Positions 6,786 through 27,449 of a stretch of 64,000 nt of DNA are shown one piece after another (the first letter of the stretch is position 1; each line of letters opens with the position of its first letter). Source of the stretch: the human T2T-CHM13v2.0 reference genome, Homo sapiens; NCBI RefSeq assembly GCF_009914755.1, contig NC_060929.1; one strand, written 5' to 3'. The position numbers were made by a program, and so were the translations under genes. Under the pieces are notes generated by a model, which worked only from the letters and a program-made list of their open reading frames with translations, searched no databases and had not been told where the DNA came from.

Positions 6786-7285
6786 AAAATCTTTTTAATA
6801 CAGCAATTCAGCAGAAGACAAAACTGGGAGAGTGAAAGACCACATTAACAATTGGGCAACTATGCTTACCCAGCTCCTCAGTAACACCCCATATCTGCTT
6901 TATACATTAACCCCAAGCTTTTCTCCTGGTAGAAAGGATTCTAGTCTCTGCTCTAGGACTAGCAATGTGATTTGGGGGCAATAATGAACTTTCTAAAGCC
7001 AGGCACCATAAAAACAGCTTTTCCTCCACAGACATGGTAGTACTTTTTCCTTTCATCTGCAAAACCAATCTGTCCTAATCTAGATAATTTCACCCCAGAC
7101 GGTAGGATTTTATGTTAGTATCATTAATTCTATCTCCTAAGGAAATTTGCTTCTAAGACTGAAGTTATCATCCAGTTTCTTGTTATCTGGTTAGAACCAC
7201 CCAAGAGAGCAGAAGAGTATAGAAACACAAATGCTGGAGATTTCTAAGTTCCAGATACTCTGTCACCAATTGTGAGATGGATGCC

Positions 7286-7440
7286 ATGAAGCAGCACTTT
7301 CCTCCTGGGGTGCAGCAGGGGCAGGACTTTCCTCTGGGGTGCATCAGGCCTGGGATTCAACAGACTAGGCACCAGGACTCCAGAGGCCACCAACCCTGAG
7401 CCCAGGGGATTGTGTGCCCTGTCAGCTCCATTGTATATTA
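7286..7440 (+). pseudogene. ANXA2R-like relic B (5' fragment with internal 30-bp duplication, frameshift and stop)
   Basis: gccATG then MKQHFPPGVQQ ~ MEQHFLGCVKR; after the duplication HQAWDSTD*APGLQRPPTLSPGDCVP ~ KRAWDSAEVAPEPQPPPIVSSEDRGP; TATAGAA at 7218. Confidence 0.8.
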
Positions 7441-10318: not shown

Positions 10319-10685
10319 GTATTTTTATTTTAAAAATGGGCGACTACCCTGGCCTGCTCCTCAGTAACATTATGACCCATCAGGCATCTGACAAGCATTG
10401 CTCTGGGGTAGAAAAGGATCCAAGTCTGCTCCAGTACTAGTAATGCATTTGGGGGCAATAATGAATTTTCTAACCAGGGTCCCCCAAAACAGATTTCCCT
10501 GCACCAGATAGTATTTTTTCTTTTCAATCCCTAAAGCAAACTATTTAACTAGATAACTTCATCTCAGATGATAGGACTTTATGTAAATCTCATTAATTCC
10601 ATCTCTTGATGTAATTTGCTCCTAAGATTAAGGTTTCCACCCACCTCCCTGAAATCTGATTTGGACCCCCAGGAGGCCAGAAGAG

Positions 10686-11230
10686 TATAAAAACGCAAAA
10701 GATGTTGACTTCTGAGTCCCACATACCCGGCGTCAGCTGGTGAATGAAAGACACGAAGGAGCTGCTGTGGAGCTGCTGTCTCCCCTCGGAGTTTGGCAGG
10801 CCCGGGATTCCGCAAAGGAGTTGGCGGGGCCAGATGCCTCCAGCCCTGAGCTCAGTACATTCGGTGTCCTGGATGCTCCCTTCCTTTCCTTATCACTGCG
10901 AGCTCTCCTGGGACGGCCTAGATTTCCACTGGGACCTACTTTCGGCTCCCTGCGTGCTTCATTGCTGAAACTGCCGGCGAAAAGATCTCTTTCTCAAGCC
11001 TCAGAGCACCTTGAGGCGGGGCGCAGAGTCGCCCGCTCTGGATCCCGCGCCAGAGACCCAGGAGGATCCGCAGGAGCCCTCGGGAGAGCAGGAGGCTGCA
11101 TAGGGTCTCAACGTACTCCCGTCCCCGCAGCCTCCCTCGCAACTCGCCCCTCGCTCGGTAGGCAGACAACTCCAGCCGGACAGGTCCGTCCGAGGAGACC
11201 TTTCAGAGTGTCAGCCTACTGCTGACCTCG
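10686..11230 (+). promoter_or_regulatory. TATA box (TATAAAA 10686-10692) followed by a small CpG island
   Basis: Canonical TATA; dense CpG from ~10720 to 11230. Confidence 0.6.
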
Positions 11231-11360
11231 GAGCCACCAACCAAAGTTCCAAGACTGCTGGCTGCAGATTGCATGCTCTTGGGGCAGACGCCCTAAGAAT
11301 GTGTCCACCGAGTCCAATGTGTCTTTGGAGTCCTGAGCCCTGAGATTTCCGCTAAGACCT
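10767..11360 (+). pseudogene. ANXA2R-like relic C (near full length; ATG>GTG, frameshift, internal stops)
   Basis: VELLSPLGVWQARDSAKELA ~ MEQHFLGCVKRAWDSA-EVA; WMLPSFPYHCELSWDGLDFHWDLLSAPC ~ WPLPLYPVLGEYSLDSCDL--GLLSSPC; shared DNA GGGATTCCGCA, CAGAGCACCTTG, CAGACA, AGACTGC; AATAAA at 11473. Confidence 0.88.
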
Positions 11361-11844
11361 TCCATTGGACGATCTCTTGTAACAGATGTTGTTACAGTAA
11401 CACGTGAGTTCGCTCAAATGCGATGGAAGTTTTGCCTTTCGATCATTTTGTGCCTTTGTCTTTCCCCTTCTCAATAAAATCGTACACAAATGTGAAATTC
11501 TTGTTGCCTGTGTTCCTGTTGATGTTGGGTAAGGATGAGCCTCAGGGGCGGGGTGGCTGGTTGCTGGTGCCAGGACTATCACGGGGACCCTGAATCCCCT
11601 AGGTTTGCTGGTTGCAGGGCAAACAAAAAGTACAAGAAGTGTGTGTCTTATGCAGAGATTGGAGGGGAGAATAGGCCAGGGGTCGTGCATGGCTGGTGAC
11701 TCACAGGCTGAGCCTACAGGAAATCCGGTGAACAGGCAGCAGACCTGAGAACTTACTGCAGGAAATTCTCCTGTTCTGAGGCCCTGGAACTTTTTCCCTC
11801 TGAAGGTTTGCACCTTTCTATCTTGAGGCCTTGTTAAACTCATA

Positions 11845-15707: not shown

Positions 15708-16249
15708 GAATAAGTAATATTAAGAACTGGTCATCTGTGAAGTTGTATTAATATAAGTAATTGCGTGGTCCTTCCACGAGAAATAGCAAAGATTGATAAA
15801 CCTCTCAGTCTTATGATCGTGAATAAAATTCCTGAGTGTAAAACAATGAATCGATATACTGAAAAAAAGAAAGACCGCTGTTAAAAATAAAATTAACAAT
15901 TAAAATTAAAAAGACGTTATAATAACGTAAAAGACATGATATAAAATTAAATGTAAACAAACAATACATTTAAAAAGCAATAATTAGAAAAATAGTAGGA
16001 ATAAGATTTTAAAATACAATGGAAAAAAACAAATTTTAAATTTGCCAAAAACTCTAAGAATTCTACAATCGTAAAATAGATTTCTCAAAGTGAAAACAGA
16101 TACGAATGAAATATTTAATGAAATAAATACAAATATTTAAAATACAAGGAAACTGAAAGTAATAAGCGACGCGAAACAAGAAAGAAACATAAGGGAAAAA
16201 GAGAATTTAAAAACTGACAACCAGCAATGAAAGCACATCTTAATGTATT

Positions 16250-16255
16250 TTTATT
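16250..16255 (-). terminator. Probable ANXA2R polyadenylation signal (AATAAA)
   Basis: TTTATT on + strand ~70 nt past the stop codon, with U-rich sequence downstream on the - strand. Confidence 0.65.
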
Positions 16256-16326
16256 TTCTAGGTGGAGACGTTTGGTAACTGAGAATCTTTTCAAGGAGGA
16301 GAATCCAAAAAGCCTTCTGCTGCTAT

Positions 16327-16908
16327 CTAAGGCTGCTTAGCTCCACAGATCCGTGAACAGCACGCCCAGAGTACAGAGAACGCGGCAAAACCAACGCGAA
16401 GAATCCACTCCAGGCAGTCTGAGAAACCCGGGAGGTGGCGCCACGGCTGGAGGGCAGGAGGATGGCGGCGTTCCAAAAGGCACCCGCTGTCACAGACCTC
16501 GGTGTCCTGCTGTCTGTCCCAGGGATGGAGAGGACTGCTCCAGGGAAGCTGCTGGAGCCTGAGTCTGTCGGGTTCCTCTGCCTGCCCCACCTCTTCTACG
16601 GGTGCCTCTTGCTGCTTCTGTGTCCCCGGCCAACTGAACTCAGTGGGCTTCGCTGTACTTGGTTCCAAGGTGCTCTGGACTCCAGGAGAGAGTCCGTTTT
16701 GCCAGTAGACTCCGGGCAGCCGCCAGCAAGGGCTGGAAAGCAGTCCCAAATCACAGCTGTCCAGTGAGTACTCTCCTAGTACTGGATACAAAGGAAGAGG
16801 CCACGGCCCACGATCTTCTGAACTCACAATAGGTGGAGGCTGGGGCTCTGGCGCCACCTCTGCGGAATCCCAAGCCCGCTTCACACAGCCAAGAAAATGT
16901 TGCTCCAT
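16327..16908 (-). CDS. ANXA2R: Annexin A2 receptor (C5orf39), 193 aa, single coding exon
   Basis: Intact ORF MEQHFLGCVKRAWDSAEVAPEP...WACCSRICGAKQP recognised as human ANXA2R; strong Kozak (gggATGG); hydrophobic C-terminal segment. Confidence 0.93.
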   Translation of the reverse strand: MEQHFLGCVKRAWDSAEVAPEPQPPPIVSSEDRGPWPLPLYPVLGEYSLDSCDLGLLSSPCWRLPGVYWQNGLSPGVQSTLEPSTAKPTEFSWPGTQKQQEAPVEEVGQAEEPDRLRLQQLPWSSPLHPWDRQQDTEVCDSGCLLERRHPPALQPWRHLPGFSDCLEWILRVGFAAFSVLWACCSRICGAKQP

Positions 16909-16977
16909 CCCTCAAGCCTCAGACCAACGTTTGCGCTGATCAAGGAGGGAGAGTCTCTGCACTACCATCAGCCTGAG

Positions 16978-17009
16978 TATTTATGCTCTGCAGAGCCCGT
17001 GGGCGGAGG
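16978..17009 (-). promoter_or_regulatory. Candidate ANXA2R proximal promoter (CATAAATA TATA-like element and GC box)
   Basis: Minus-strand CATAAATA 70-77 nt upstream of ATG; GGGCGGAGG at 17001-17009; same spacing seen in paralogous relics. Confidence 0.45.
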
Positions 17010-18699
17010 CCAGTCAGATATTAAGAAACTCAGTAGTAACAAATGCACGAAAATTAGTAGACAAATGAAAAACGATAACATTTTAGAGAGTACATAGAAC
17101 CAAAACGAACCGTAATTCCGACAGAAAAACATGGCGAGAAAAGAAACCGAAATGAAATGACACTAAGCAAATCTTGAAGAGAACTAGCGCTACAGAACGC
17201 AGGTATTCAAGAGCGCGCAAGGGCCAAGAACCACCCGTTTCCGGGAAATGAGCGTTGCTGCCACCGGAAAACTGTCTGCTAGGGCTCTGCCCTAACCACC
17301 TTGCAAACGAGAAACTGGCGCGTTGAACTTAGCAAGCGCCGGCACCTAGCGGATAGCGCTGGTATTGCCAAACAAATATCCGTTTTGGCGCCGTAAAGGG
17401 TGCTGCTAAAGAGAAACAGCATGCTCTTAGAACTAAGAGCGGTGCTTCCACACCTAAACAACCTGTTTGGAGGAATGAACCAACTCTGTTTCAATGTGTT
17501 GTACCAGAAAAATGTGTTGCGGCATTTAATGTGTTTTAATCCGTTCAATGTGTTTGATAGGTTTAATATGTTTTAACCCGTTTTAATGGGTTGTGACAGA
17601 AAAAGCGCCGGCTAATGGTACCACACAATTACTAGTGCGAACAGCGGCTCGGTGCAATCACCGTTCTGCACGGCAAAACGGGGTTCAGGAAGTTCCTAGG
17701 AGATACTAGCGGTTGTAGGAGCGAAAAAGTGACAGCACTGAGAACCTAAGGACCCCGCGAACGGGAAATGTCACGTTGGGTGCAGCAACTGAGAAAACGC
17801 CCAGTGGGCGCCACTGGCAAACGTGCTGATACAAAACCGCCAGCTCTGCATAGGAAGCGGAGCCTCCAGACAGAACCCGGAACCTGATACCAGCGAGGCT
17901 AAGACCGAGCTCGGCTCCCCGGCTCCTGAGAGAATGAAAGTCAAGAAGCACGAATCTGAGACGCTCAAAATTAGAAGAAAAAAAAATACATAATTTAAAA
18001 TAATGAAAGTCTGAAATGCAAGTAAAAATGAAAAACACATCGGTAACATTGTCCTCAGAGCAAGACACAAAAATAATTTTAAGGTAAGCAAAAGTTACAG
18101 AGAACCAACCCTACAAAGAAGAAATTACAAATATGGCTAAGCGATGCAATGCCTACCATTAGAATATTTCTGTCAGATCTAAACCCCTGCAGGTTGCTCC
18201 TGTCATAATTTCCTACGAGAAAAAAAACAAAAATATCCACGGTTAAACGTGTTTAGCTACGTCTAAAAAATCGTAGTAGCTGGTACATCCCGATTTGGTC
18301 TACAAGAGGAAAAAGTCTCGATGGGCAGGACTTGCTATTGTCAAAGGGAGCTTGGTAAAACTGAGACATCGCGATCGCCGGCATTTCCTGACTTCCACGG
18401 GAGTTTTAAAAACACACAAGCATAGCTAAGACAGGACTCGATATTGCGAAACCAAACTTGGTATAAGAGCTCCCAACACTGCTAAACTGGTCATCGCTAA
18501 ACCTTTAAAAAAAAAAAAAAAGCATTCGCTGGTACCCAGATTTCCACAGGAGTTAAACATTTCCTGCGCAGCTAAAGCAAGTCTTACCAGTAGGAAACCG
18601 GAACTTGCTAGGACTAAGAAACTTGAGGCTAGGCTGACCCCATGGTTGTTATGATTAGAAATCCGAGGCCACTGGAAACCCGGAGCTGCTGACCAACGA

Positions 18700-26154: not shown

Positions 26155-26715
26155 TGAGGCAGAAAATTTAAAAATAAATACGCATTCATTCACTCCAAGA
26201 AAAGTAACAGGCAGGGCAAGGGTTAAAAAGAAAAGAACAAGTTCTCCTCTGCCTAGCAAGCTCACTTCAAAGACAGTTATAAGATACCCCTGTCCGGAAA
26301 GCCAAGTCCAAAGGAATGGGCTCCAGACACCCGCCCCTGCTCCAGAGCAAGGTTGAATGAAAAAAAAAAAAAAAGAAAGACAAATTCTTTTACTGTTACT
26401 CCTCTCCCAGGCTTCTTAAGCGAGATTATGTTTTACAAATGTCTGTATTTAGCCAGTTCTTGTTTTTCTTTCAATGCAGGCACAAGACCACCGACTATGC
26501 AAGGCCACAAGTTATGCTATGCTATAGATTATGTGACCTATCATATGATTAGCTGCTTTTGTTTTACTTTTGTAAGCCAGCTTATAAAAACCCCACTCTG
26601 TCTTTGTTCTAGGCTCAGCTTTTTGGATGCAAATCCACTGAGCCGGTGCGTACCTAAAATAAACAATCCTCCTGTTCTCCATATCAGTCTCTCTGGTCCT
26701 CAGTTTCCTGCAACA
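26155..26715 (+). mobile_element. Solo ERV1 LTR (LTR6-like)
   Basis: TG...CA termini with perfect 4-bp TSD ctac; internal TATA and AATAAA; subfamily from memory. Confidence 0.8.
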
Positions 26716-27449
26716 CTACCTTATTGGCCCATACTGGGTATCACGCAGGGTCAGAGGCGAATTTACCATGCAGCTAAGGAAGCTTAGCTTTTAGGATCCG
26801 TTTGAACAGGTCTGTAATTTTGTACTCAAAATTTTTATTCTTTTTTTTAAAGAGAATCCCCCACTACTTTTATGAACATTGGGTACTATTAACTGAACCT
26901 ACCTTGAACACAACAGTTTGCTTGATCACATGGAACCATCTTCTAGGAAGCCCTATCTAAGAATAATCCACTTAGGATAAGCTTCTAAGAATAATCCACT
27001 TAGGATGAAAGAAAGGGGAAGAATATATCCACTGTGGGAGAAATAAAACAATCCTGACACAAAAAGACCCCTGTGTACCCAACAGAAGAGAGACAGAACA
27101 CTAGTATTGAATTAGCCTTAACAGATTTACATGCATGTAAGGTAGCATGACAATAACTATAAAGCTGGCTCATATCTCATATGCTTTGAACAAAGAATGG
27201 GGAAGAATGAGAACTGCTTTTACTGCTTCAAAAGAAAAGAGGGTACACCTTGTGACAGTTTCCCCTATACTGAGAAACCCTCAGCTCGTCCTTGTAGGTG
27301 CTGTTAAAAAACATCTGGATGTTATTTTCCTATGGCCCGGGTACATTCTGGAGACCGGGCTTAATCCCTAGAGATATTATATTTCCACTGTTAGAACAAA
27401 GATTCAGAGTTGTTACCACGTTGAATGTAATATCACTGTTTTCTTTCTT

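What the first reader, a model, noticed from the sequence alone, without database searches (positions are those of the whole stretch)
10686..11500. Relic C still looks like a complete transcription unit and may encode a 74-aa remnant
It has a perfect TATAAAA (10686), a retained CpG island, the ancestral start changed to GTG (10767), and AATAAA (11473) with a GU-rich downstream tract. The first ATG after the predicted TSS (10744, weak context) opens a 74-aa ORF. Because of the frameshift, that ORF reads into the best-conserved ANXA2R block (WMLPSFPYHCELSWDGLDFHWDLLSAPC). The unit is convergent with ANXA2R 5 kb away. Expression is inference.
Basis: partly seen in the sequence, partly recalled or inferred. 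Interest (0 to 1): 0.75.

Follow-up and report, generated by a model that had tools for sequence, protein, structure and literature searches.

The report
Dead sister gene of ANXA2R/RESIST
This stretch is the broken remains of a second, ancient copy of the interferon-regulating gene ANXA2R (RESIST) that some other mammals still keep intact; its promoter and poly(A) signals survive, but the 74-codon reading frame is most likely a leftover and not a working gene.

Summary
The stretch is a real relative of ANXA2R: Pfam PF15721 gives E 1.2e-5 on the 74-aa ORF and 44 bits on the read-through.

Three points need correcting:
- The relic is not a decayed copy of the neighbouring ANXA2R. It is the human remnant of a separate, old paralogue clade that is annotated as protein-coding in hippopotamus, camel and a horseshoe bat.
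- The ancestral start most likely corresponds to ACG 10753. The GTG at 10767 straddles the junction of a perfect 11-nt tandem duplication.
- That +11 and a net -2 near 10812-10830 cancel each other. This is why the ATG-10744 frame re-enters the conserved block.

From 10831 one frame follows the family profile, but it is broken by TGA 10966 and TAG 11101.

The TATA box is homologous in all three local copies. The AATAAA has a strong GU-rich tract downstream. CpG content is island-like only by lenient criteria.

The 74-aa ORF is one of 63 ORFs of that size in the window. It keeps 8 of 14 alignable conserved residues and lacks the C-terminal region that RESIST needs.

Expression and primate conservation could not be tested. 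Verdict: an unannotated unitary-type pseudogene, of moderate interest.

The parts
10686..10692 (+). TATA box (TATAAAA), inherited core promoter element
   Evidence: It aligns with TATAGAA of relic B (7218-7224) and CATAAATA of ANXA2R (16985-16978). The local alignment ending at this motif gave z 4.9, 0 of 300 shuffles, for ANXA2R vs relic B, and z 2.5, 10 of 300, for ANXA2R vs relic C.
10716..10721 (+). predicted transcription start; CCCACA at 10718-10723 fits the recalled initiator consensus BBCABW with A at 10721
   Evidence: Sequence. The spacing rule and the consensus are recalled. No experimental data.
10744..10968 (+). 74-codon ATG ORF with a weak Kozak context. Codons 1-3 lie upstream of the old start, codons 4-29 are partly out of the ancestral frame, codons 30-74 are in the ancestral frame.
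   Evidence: Pfam PF15721 on residues 30-70, E 1.2e-5, 26.3 bits. An ATG at the same -9 in-frame position is present in relic B at 7277.
10753..10755 (+). ACG, most likely homologue of the ancestral ATG
   Evidence: Relic B ATG AAG (7286-7291) aligns with relic C ACG AAG. The distance from TATA to start is 67 nt in C and 68 nt in B.
10758..10779 (+). perfect tandem duplication of GGAGCTGCTGT (+11 nt, shifts the frame). The GTG at 10767-10769 straddles the junction.
10812..10830 (+). net -2 nt relative to ANXA2R (6 codons + 1 nt where ANXA2R has 7 codons). Together with the +11 it restores the frame.
   Evidence: and codon reading. The exact site within this stretch is not resolved.
10831..10965 (+). 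conserved N-terminal block of the family, in the ancestral frame
   Evidence: 19.1 bits alone, profile positions 23-63, only in this frame. 52% identity over 79 aa without gaps to the hippopotamus clade-II protein P0061.
10966..10968 (+). first premature stop (TGA) in the ancestral frame; ends the 74-aa ORF
11101..11103 (+). second premature stop (TAG) in the ancestral frame
10969..11340 (+). rest of the old coding region. The same frame is supported to 11100 (16.1 bits); beyond that support is weak (3.6 bits).
11341..11343 (+). probable ancestral stop codon (frame ends ...SPEP*, family ends ...SKEP*/AKQP*)
   Evidence: Suggestive only.
11473..11478 (+). AATAAA poly(A) signal, 130 nt behind the probable ancestral stop
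   Evidence: There are 76 AATAAA on this strand in 64 kb.
11491..11530 (+). GU-rich downstream element
   Evidence: 77.5% G+T, rank 5 of 119 AATAAA sites.
10781..11320 (.). CpG-rich domain over the gene body (GC 0.61, o/e 0.64)
   Evidence: In the stretch shared with relic B, relic C has 9 CpG and relic B has 1. All 9 lie at or after 10694.
6914..7432 (+). relic B: partial 5' copy of the same paralogue type (about 370 nt upstream plus about 50 codons), CpG-depleted
   Evidence: 365 matches, 118 mismatches, 17 gap events. Own family profile 21.3 bits, 7339-7428. CpG o/e 0.04-0.05.
16233..17181 (-). ANXA2R (RESIST), the intact clade-I paralogue, convergent with the relic
   Evidence: Hub table. 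Pfam 311.8 bits.

Best explanation
Relic C (about 10686-11500, + strand) is an unannotated pseudogene. It is not a retrocopy or a recent worn copy of ANXA2R. It is the human remnant of a second, old paralogue of the ANXA2R/RESIST family, here called clade II.

Inferred history: the family duplicated before the human-hippopotamus split. The clade-II copy stayed coding for most of the time since. In the lineage to humans it was then disabled by five lesions:
- loss of the start codon (ATG to ACG at 10753);
- an 11-nt tandem duplication (10758-10779);
- a net 2-nt loss (10812-10830);
- a TGA at 10966;
- a TAG at 11101.

The TATA box, the short leader, the poly(A) signal with its GU-rich tract, and much of the CpG content are inherited parts of the old single-exon gene that have not yet decayed. 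The 74-codon ORF is what is left of the old reading frame between an old in-frame upstream ATG and the first nonsense codon.

Shown: homology, the lesions, clade placement, and homology of the TATA element. Inferred: the order and date of the lesions, and the lack of function of the ORF.
For: Homology:
- Pfam PF15721 gives 26.3 bits on the ORF and 44.1 bits on the read-through with X at the two stops. Residues 30-170 match profile positions 22-162 in one frame.
- My own family profile gives 50.1 bits over 10831-11265 without gaps.
- The frame is supported separately for 10831-10965 (19.1 bits) and 10966-11100 (16.1 bits), with no comparable score in the other frames.

Clade:
- The best relatives among 125 family proteins plus human ANXA2R are P0061 (82.8 bits), P0043 (62.6) and P0114 (50.5). 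The chimpanzee ANXA2R isoform scores 21.2 bits, and human ANXA2R is not among the 40 best.
- A clade-II profile scores the relic 74.7 bits, against 50.1 for the ANXA2R-type profile.
- In a tree of 105 rows (22 of 127 dropped for length) the relic sits in a clade of 34 rows with SH-aLRT 98. That clade excludes the 10 primate ANXA2R rows.
- P0061 is NCBI 'annexin-2 receptor-like [Hippopotamus amphibius kiboko]'. It lists the same 69,697,670-base contig length as the hippopotamus ANXA2R-type protein P0018. Other named clade-II members come from Rhinolophus ferrumequinum and Camelus ferus.
- Relic vs P0061 is 52% over 79 aa with no gaps. Human ANXA2R vs P0018 is 50% over 197 aa. Relic vs human ANXA2R is 34% over 86 aa.

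Lesions.

Not a processed copy: homology to relic B runs about 350 nt upstream of the ORF. The TATA region aligns with ANXA2R.

Relaxed constraint: the relic keeps 8 of 14 alignable clade-II conserved columns, second lowest of 34 rows, most of which keep 0.9 or more.

ORF length is ordinary: 63 ATG ORFs of 74 aa or more in the window.

Annotation: RefSeq lists no gene here (hub table). PMC12310523 (passages) says human ANXA2R 'is encoded by a single gene'.
Against: - The AU test does not formally reject a tree that joins the relic to the primate ANXA2R clade (lnL 34.9 lower, p-AU 0.0565). The group was named after the tree had been seen.
- The tree was built with the 'quick' method, and the relic is a long branch (0.77).
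- Many clade-II rows come from unnamed records. Some may themselves be ORFs called on pseudogenes; P0088 keeps only 10 of 23 conserved columns.
- Several features could mean that the unit is still used. The TATA box is a perfect 7 of 7. The poly(A) site is better than ANXA2R's own. CpG o/e is 0.62-0.77, against 0.49 in the ANXA2R CDS and 0.05 in relic B. RefSeq 'enhancer' features at 10575-11114 and 11115-11652 tile the unit (hub table). The two frame-shifting length changes cancel (+11, -2), which keeps the conserved block readable from an ATG.
- dN/dS against human ANXA2R is 0.67 (bootstrap 0.39-0.97) and 0.39 in the ORF part. This mixes both lineages and rests on a protein-guided alignment.
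- No primate or other mammalian genome could be examined. The date of death and the orthology to P0061 are inferences.
Confidence: 0.8

Rival explanations
1. The dead gene has been taken over as a regulatory element. Either its body acts as an enhancer or its old promoter still fires and makes a roughly 780-nt unspliced non-coding RNA. The region stays unmethylated in the germ line, which preserves its CpGs. This is compatible with the pseudogene reading; it adds present-day activity.
For: - RefSeq functional-element 'enhancer' features at 10575-11114 and 11115-11652 cover the unit almost exactly. Features of the same class also cover the ANXA2R gene body (hub table).
- CpG o/e is 0.64 over 10781-11320, against 0.05 in sister relic B. 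In the shared stretch there are 9 CpG in C and 1 in B, and 4 of the 9 align to TG or CA in B.
- The TATA box is intact and the poly(A) signal is strong.
- Annotation pipelines often leave out single-exon RNAs (my knowledge).
Against: - No transcript is annotated on the + strand here (hub table).
- The CpG-rich stretch may simply be the old GC-rich coding sequence that died recently.
- The lenient island criteria are met by 26 stretches of the window, Alus among them.
- The kind of assay behind the RefSeq features is not known to me.
Confidence: 0.3
2. The unit encodes a working small protein: the 74-aa product, or 44 or 31 aa from the in-frame ATGs at 10834 and 10873. It would keep the family's N-terminal block.
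For: - It is the first ATG after the predicted start, with no upstream ORF. A single exon means no exon-junction-dependent decay (established knowledge).
- The frame is restored by compensating length changes.
- The block still scores E 1.2e-5 against Pfam.
- C-terminally truncated mouse RESIST still co-precipitates with CCR4-NOT (PMC12310523, passages).
Against: - All three ATGs have weak contexts.
- The leader would be only about 23-28 nt.
- The ORF length is ordinary (63 in the window).
- The first 29 residues do not read the ancestral frame, so the conserved CV.EAWDS motif is lost. That accounts for 8 of the 22 clade-II conserved columns. Of the other 14, 6 are changed.
- The C-terminal region that the same paper found essential for Ifnb1 mRNA stabilisation lies behind two stop codons.
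- The two peptide strings searched are in none of the papers held.
Confidence: 0.04
3. It is a decayed duplicate of ANXA2R itself, made within primates. This is the reading implied by 'relic of ANXA2R'.
For: - It lies 5 kb from ANXA2R.
- The AU test leaves this grouping just unrejected (p 0.0565).
Against: - Nucleotide identity to ANXA2R is only 58%. Protein identity is 34%, against 52% to the hippopotamus clade-II protein.
- phmmer gives 82.8 bits against 21 or less.
- It shares clade-II signatures absent from all primate ANXA2R proteins (LSWD..DF.W.LLS.PC, QSTLRRGAE.PALDP.PET).
- It carries the two residues that primate ANXA2R lacks in the block.
Confidence: 0.05
4. Chance resemblance, with no homology.
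For: Ordinary blastn finds nothing.
Against: - E 2e-17 (DNA).
- 1.1e-16 and 4.5e-24 (profiles).
- 4.1e-11 (Pfam).
- 8e-23 (BLASTP to P0061).
Confidence: 0.01

Closest known systems
Human ANXA2R (C5orf39; renamed RESIST in PMC12310523), window 16327-16908 minus strand
   Same: - Same Pfam family, PF15721.
- Single-exon layout.
- A TATA-like element about 70-80 nt before the start codon.
- Same order of protein blocks.
- Same chromosomal neighbourhood.
   Different: - ANXA2R is intact (193 aa); the relic has lost its start and carries two nonsense codons and two frame-shifting length changes.
- Identity is only 34% protein and 58% DNA.
- They fall in different clades.
- The 3' flanks cannot be aligned.
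Clade-II 'annexin-2 receptor-like' proteins of other mammals: P0061 (Hippopotamus amphibius kiboko), P0064 (Rhinolophus ferrumequinum hypothetical protein), P0126 (Camelus ferus)
   Same: - Closest sequences: P0061 gives 82.8 bits, 52% over 79 aa without gaps.
- Shared signature motifs.
- In hippopotamus the protein coexists with an ANXA2R-type paralogue, apparently on the same scaffold.
   Different: - Those are open reading frames of 163-179 aa annotated as proteins; the human copy is broken.
- One-to-one orthology was not shown, because no genomic context was available.
Lineage-specific copy-number change in this family: mouse Resist1/Resist2 tandem paralogues (PMC12310523, passages) and the ANXA2R expansion in horseshoe bats (Tian et al. 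2025, seen only as summarised in PMC13500052, passage)
   Same: The gene family gains and loses copies in tandem at one locus, as expected of a fast-evolving immune gene.
   Different: - Those are gains of working copies. The mouse pair differs by one silent base.
- Here there is an old copy that was lost. No paper I could search describes a human pseudogene.
Unitary pseudogenes in general (genes lost in one lineage with no working counterpart of the same clade; my knowledge)
   Same: - Stays at the ancestral locus with its own promoter.
- Few disabling lesions.
- Intact relatives in other species.
   Different: A paralogue of the other clade (ANXA2R) is still active next door, so family function is not wholly lost.

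Membership tests
ANXA2R/RESIST protein family (Pfam PF15721) | Sequence match to the family profile above the curated cut-off (27 bits) | tested here: met
   The read-through with X at the two stops scores 44.1 bits, E 4.1e-11. The 74-aa ORF alone scores 26.3 bits, just under the cut-off.
ANXA2R/RESIST protein family (Pfam PF15721) | Uninterrupted ORF of about 170-200 codons from ATG to the family's C-terminus | tested here: not met
   The start homologue is ACG. There is an 11-nt duplication, a net -2, a TGA at 10966 and a TAG at 11101. It is a pseudogene member, not a gene.
ANXA2R/RESIST protein family (Pfam PF15721) | C-terminal region (helix, needed for Ifnb1 mRNA stabilisation in mouse RESIST; PMC12310523 passages) | tested here: inconclusive
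   The last third scores only 3.6 bits in the ancestral frame. The W.WI.RAV-like motif is not recognisable. In any case it lies behind both stop codons.
ANXA2R/RESIST protein family (Pfam PF15721) | Binding to CCR4-NOT (CNOT1/CNOT9) | not testable with these tools
   No human CNOT sequence is open to the complex tool. Structure prediction was not accepting jobs.
Clade II of the family (as against the ANXA2R clade) | Groups with clade-II proteins in a tree and scores higher on a clade-II profile | tested here: met
   SH-aLRT 98 for a 34-row clade. 74.7 against 50.1 bits. 82.8 against 21 or fewer bits. Caveat: AU test p 0.0565.
Clade II of the family (as against the ANXA2R clade) | Retention of the clade's strongly conserved residues | tested here: not met
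   8 of 14 alignable columns are kept, and 8 further columns are lost to the frame-shifted N-terminus. Second lowest of 34 rows.
RNA polymerase II TATA-type transcription unit | TATA box about 30 nt before an initiator, and a poly(A) signal with a GU-rich downstream element | tested here: met
   The initiator consensus is recalled.
RNA polymerase II TATA-type transcription unit | Observed transcript 5' and 3' ends | not testable with these tools
   No expression data can be reached. RefSeq has no + strand gene here (hub table).
CpG island | At least 200 bp, GC at least 0.5, o/e at least 0.6 (lenient); at least 500 bp, GC at least 0.55, o/e at least 0.65 (strict). Both sets of criteria are recalled. 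| tested here: inconclusive
   10781-11320: 540 bp, GC 0.61, o/e 0.64. It passes the lenient criteria and just misses the strict ones.
Processed (retrotransposed) pseudogene | Homology stops at the mRNA ends; poly(A) tail; no parental promoter | tested here: not met
   Homology with relic B runs about 350 nt upstream of the ORF. The TATA region aligns with ANXA2R. There is no A-run behind 11495.
Translated small ORF / micropeptide | Ribosome footprints, peptides, or ORF conservation under purifying selection | not testable with these tools
   Only indirect evidence: ordinary length, weak start context, loss of conserved residues.

The most novel reading that the evidence does not exclude
Relic C is still a live single-exon unit. 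It would be transcribed from its inherited TATA promoter, polyadenylated behind 11473, and translated into an N-terminal RESIST-like fragment of 74 aa (or 44 or 31 aa from the in-frame ATGs at 10834 and 10873).

C-terminally truncated RESIST still binds CCR4-NOT but no longer stabilises Ifnb1 mRNA (PMC12310523). A product of this kind could therefore be a natural competitor of ANXA2R/RESIST at the deadenylase, tuning interferon-beta output in humans.
Probability: 0.04. Interest if true: 0.65.

Novelty: new member of a known kind. Interest (0 to 1): 0.36.

Why it matters
ANXA2R has recently been recast as RESIST, a CCR4-NOT-binding stabiliser of interferon-beta mRNA. The paper states that humans have a single gene (PMC12310523, passages).

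The window shows more than that. The human locus also holds the remains of a second, old paralogue (relic C) and a further partial copy (relic B). The same paralogue type is annotated as a protein in hippopotamus, camel and a horseshoe bat.

This fits a picture of repeated gain and loss of copies in an antiviral gene family. It also gives a concrete gene loss on the human lineage to date and test.

There is a practical lesson as well. Searches with human proteins will hardly find the relic: tblastn E is 0.005 even in 64 kb. Gene callers, on the other hand, make a spurious 192-aa out-of-frame protein from a near-identical copy (P0132).

Tried and rejected
- Ordinary blastn of the ANXA2R mRNA against the window found only itself. 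Sensitive settings were needed.
- The GTG-frame ORF (152 aa) has no Pfam match. The same is true of the two later stop-free segments on their own.
- A six-frame scan of the whole window with both profiles found no further family members besides ANXA2R, relic C and relic B. A weak out-of-order hit at 26281-26772 (E 0.0085) was set aside as chance.
- The 3' flanks of ANXA2R and the relic do not align (z -0.3, 227 of 300 shuffles as good), so homology of the two poly(A) signals cannot be claimed.
- Distal upstream similarity to ANXA2R around an IRF-like T-rich element is not significant (z 0.2 and 0.9). A proper ISRE core is present only at ANXA2R.
- dN/dS against ANXA2R (0.67, 0.39-0.97) was judged uninformative. 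The sequences are near saturation, with identity 0.51/0.47/0.49 by codon position.
- A search with the read-through protein for intact close relatives of 109-349 aa found only P0132. That is an out-of-frame ORF of a near-identical copy from an unnamed record. No intact close orthologue turned up, but proteins under 109 aa were not searched, and candidates need shared 5-residue words.
- Rfam: two chance-level matches, nothing at gathering score.
- Literature searches gave nothing: ANXA2R + pseudogene (5 unrelated papers, listing only); 'annexin-2 receptor-like' and variants (0); ANXA2RP and variants (0); two peptide strings of the ORF (0).
- Structure prediction accepted no jobs, so no fold of the family or the remnant was obtained.
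- Complex prediction was not used. The partner of interest, human CNOT9/CNOT1, is not among the sequences it accepts.
Full report
**Observation.**
- TATAAAA 10686-10692;
- ATG 10744 (T at -3, A at +4);
- GTG 10767;
- AATAAA 11473;
- a G+T-rich tract at 11491-11530;
- a 74-codon ORF, 10744-10968.

Taken one by one, these motifs are common in this window. TATAAAA occurs 36 times and AATAAA 119 times on both strands, and there are 63 ATG ORFs of at least 74 codons, only one of which is a known CDS. What makes them worth a look is their placement around a stretch that is truly related to ANXA2R.

**Homology.**
- Default blastn of the ANXA2R mRNA finds only itself.
- With sensitive settings, 10796-11258 aligns to the mRNA at 58% over 477 columns (E 2e-17). 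A second piece, 7318-7436, aligns at 66% over 122 columns (E 2e-8). tblastn gives E 0.005.
- Pfam PF15721 (Annexin-2 receptor) matches residues 30-70 of the 74-aa ORF at E 1.2e-5 and 26.3 bits, against a cut-off of 27.
- I built a profile from human ANXA2R and 25 of the 28 relatives found, leaving out three partial sequences. It matches one frame of the relic from 10831 to 10265+1000 (that is, 10831-11265), profile positions 23-167, at 50.1 bits. There are no gaps, and the only breaks are two in-frame stops.
- Scored in pieces, that frame alone is supported for 10831-10965 (19.1 bits) and 10966-11100 (16.1 bits). Beyond 11101 the support is weak (3.6 bits).
- Read through with X at TGA 10966 and TAG 11101, the frame scores 44.1 bits on Pfam.
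- The frame ends ...SPEP-stop at 11341, where the family ends ...SKEP or ...AKQP. This is suggestive only.
- The block that the ORF reads into is the family's best conserved part.

**The start and the 'frameshift'.**
- Relic B (6914-7432, + strand) is a partial sister copy of relic C. It covers about 350 nt of upstream sequence and about 50 codons, with 365 matches, 118 mismatches and 17 gap events.
- In that alignment relic B's ATG AAG (7286) lies opposite relic C's ACG AAG (10753). An in-frame ATG nine bases further up is present in both (7277 and 10744).
- Relic C then carries a perfect tandem duplication of GGAGCTGCTGT at 10758-10768 and 10769-10779. The GTG at 10767-10769 is the last two bases of copy one plus the first base of copy two.
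- The GTG is therefore more likely a by-product of the duplication than a mutated ATG.
- Between 10812 and 10830 the relic has six codons plus one base where ANXA2R has seven codons, a net -2.
- +11 and -2 add up to +9. The frame of ATG 10744 and ACG 10753 leaves the ancestral frame at the duplication and re-enters it at 10831.
It also means that the first 29 residues of the ORF do not read the ancestral frame.
- A second length change restores a frame one time in three by chance, so this alone says little about selection.

**Which gene is it a relic of?**
- A profile search of 1.84 billion representatives gave 103 family proteins.
- I compared relic residues 30-199 with the 125 family proteins then held plus human ANXA2R. 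The best matches were P0061 (82.8 bits), P0043 (62.6), P0114 (50.5) and P0064 (46.4). The best ANXA2R-type primate row scored 21.2 bits, and human ANXA2R was not among the 40 best.
- These relatives share motifs with the relic that primate ANXA2R lacks: LSWD..DF.W.LLS.PC and QSTLRRGAE.PALDP.PET.
- In a maximum-likelihood tree of 105 rows (22 of 127 rows left out for being under 120 or over 320 aa), the relic sits in a clade of 34 rows with SH-aLRT 98. That clade is separate from the 10-row primate ANXA2R clade (100) and from the ANXA2R-type rows of other mammals.
- A profile of the 33 other clade members scores the relic 74.7 bits.
- Named members are 'annexin-2 receptor-like' of Hippopotamus amphibius kiboko (P0061), a hypothetical protein of Rhinolophus ferrumequinum (P0064) and 'annexin-2 receptor' of Camelus ferus (P0126).
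- The hippopotamus also has an ANXA2R-type protein (P0018) with the same longest-contig length, 69,697,670 bases.
- The relic is 52% identical to P0061 over 79 aa without a gap. Human ANXA2R is 50% identical to P0018 over 197 aa. The relic is only 34% identical to its own neighbour ANXA2R.
- This is the pattern of two orthologous pairs that arose from a duplication older than the human-hippopotamus split.
- Against it: an AU test of a tree forcing the relic into the primate ANXA2R clade gave lnL 34.9 lower but p-AU 0.0565, which is not a formal rejection.

**How long has it been dead? (inference)**
- In the non-coding part of the B/C alignment there are 11 gap events per 79 mismatches.
- At that ratio, the roughly 113 mismatches between relic and ANXA2R in 10831-11100 would come with about 16 gap events if both copies had drifted freely. 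Half of that would be expected if only the relic had drifted.
- The profile alignments show none that breaks the frame there.
- Together with the intact clade-II genes elsewhere, this argues that the copy was coding for most of its history and died late.
- Two frame-breaking length changes and two nonsense codons in about 600 nt would fit a few per cent of neutral divergence, that is tens of millions of years at recalled primate rates. The error is wide.
- On the other hand, the relic keeps only 8 of 14 alignable clade-II conserved columns (Y>F, L>H, G>C, G>V, L>H, H>L). It is second lowest of 34 rows, where most rows keep 0.9 or more. So constraint on the block has been relaxed for some time, or the lineage was evolving fast before it died.

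**The transcription signals.**
- The TATA box is inherited. It aligns with TATAGAA in relic B and CATAAATA in ANXA2R (16985-16978). Local alignments that end at this motif beat dinucleotide shuffles (ANXA2R vs B: z 4.9, 0 of 300; ANXA2R vs C: z 2.5, 10 of 300).
- The distance from TATA to start codon is 67 nt in C, 68 nt in B and 76-77 nt in ANXA2R.
- The poly(A) signal cannot be shown to be homologous to ANXA2R's, because the 3' flanks do not align. It does lie 130 nt behind the probable old stop, and its downstream tract ranks 5th of 119. It is probably the old gene's own signal.
- CpG: 10781-11320 has GC 0.61 and o/e 0.64. The ANXA2R CDS has 0.49 and relic B 0.05.
- In the stretch shared by B and C there are 9 CpG in C and 1 in B. 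All 9 lie at or behind 10694.
- This could mean germ-line hypomethylation of a still active element, or simply a GC-rich coding sequence that died recently.
- The hub's table lists RefSeq enhancer features at 10575-11114 and 11115-11652, which tile the unit. I do not know the assay behind them.

**The ORF as a possible product.**
- ANXA2R is handled as an interferon-stimulated gene with antiviral activity (C5orf39 in PMC3353916, passages).
- In 2025 it was renamed RESIST, a protein that binds CCR4-NOT and stabilises Ifnb1 mRNA.
- Its C-terminal region is needed for that effect. A C-terminal truncation still co-precipitates with CCR4-NOT. The paper states that human ANXA2R is encoded by a single gene (PMC12310523, passages).
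- The 74-aa ORF lacks everything behind family position about 66 and also the conserved N-terminal motif. At best it would be a docking fragment.
- With weak start contexts, a leader of about 25 nt, ordinary length and eroded conserved residues, I put a working product at a few per cent.

**Limits.**
- No eukaryotic genomes, expression data, methylation data or ribosome profiling can be reached here.
- Many clade-II rows are unnamed predictions that may include pseudogene ORFs.
- The horseshoe-bat expansion of ANXA2R (Tian et al. 2025) was seen only as a one-paragraph summary in PMC13500052. That paper and its supplements may already describe the two clades.
- Searches for a described human pseudogene found nothing, but subscription papers and database annotations other than the RefSeq table given were not searched.

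**Verdict.**
The object is an unannotated pseudogene of a lost ANXA2R/RESIST paralogue, with inherited promoter and poly(A) signals. It is not a demonstrated transcription unit and not a likely micropeptide gene.

Noticed in passing
window 6914-7432 (+): Relic B is a partial 5' copy of the relic-C type. It keeps the ATG (7286) and a TATAGAA (7218) but has almost no CpG left (o/e 0.04-0.05). It carries its own tandem duplication of about 29-30 nt in the first codons (7291-7319 / 7321-7348). Homology ends near 7432, before Alu-like sequence.
   Followed up: partly
window 16978-16985 (-): The TATA-like CATAAATA of ANXA2R, homologous to the relic's TATA box, lies inside the RefSeq 5' UTR. It is 76 nt before the ATG and about 195 nt behind the annotated start at 17181. 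ANXA2R may have, or have had, a second start site about 30 nt behind it.
   Followed up: no
window 17138-17152 (motif on + strand, i.e. antisense to ANXA2R): An ISRE core GAAANNGAAA flanked by further GAAA half-sites lies about 235 nt upstream of the ANXA2R ATG. This fits its use as an interferon-stimulated gene. Relics C and B have only GAAANGAAA at a similar distance (10525, 7054), and that similarity is not significant.
   Followed up: partly
protein P0132 (unnamed record, 914-nt contig): A 192-aa predicted protein that is the out-of-frame (GTG-frame) reading of a near-identical copy of relic C. It is joined to the ancestral frame near the end. It has no Pfam match. It shows that gene callers can turn this pseudogene into a spurious protein.
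   Followed up: partly
window 11352-11843 (-): A 163-codon ATG ORF on the opposite strand overlaps the 3' end of the relic. It has no Pfam match and is one of the 63 ORFs of this size class.
   Followed up: partly
proteins P0082 (1558 aa) and P0125 (1394 aa): Two very long representatives carry 14 and 7 separate matches to the family profile. The best matches fall on profile positions 22-61 and 59-102. They may be read-through predictions across tandem gene arrays or true repeat proteins. I did not look at them.
   Followed up: no
tree: Besides the ANXA2R-type rows and clade II there is a third group of 19 rows (with P0023, P0028 and others). The family is therefore more diverse than a single gene per genome. 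No names were available for most rows.
   Followed up: no
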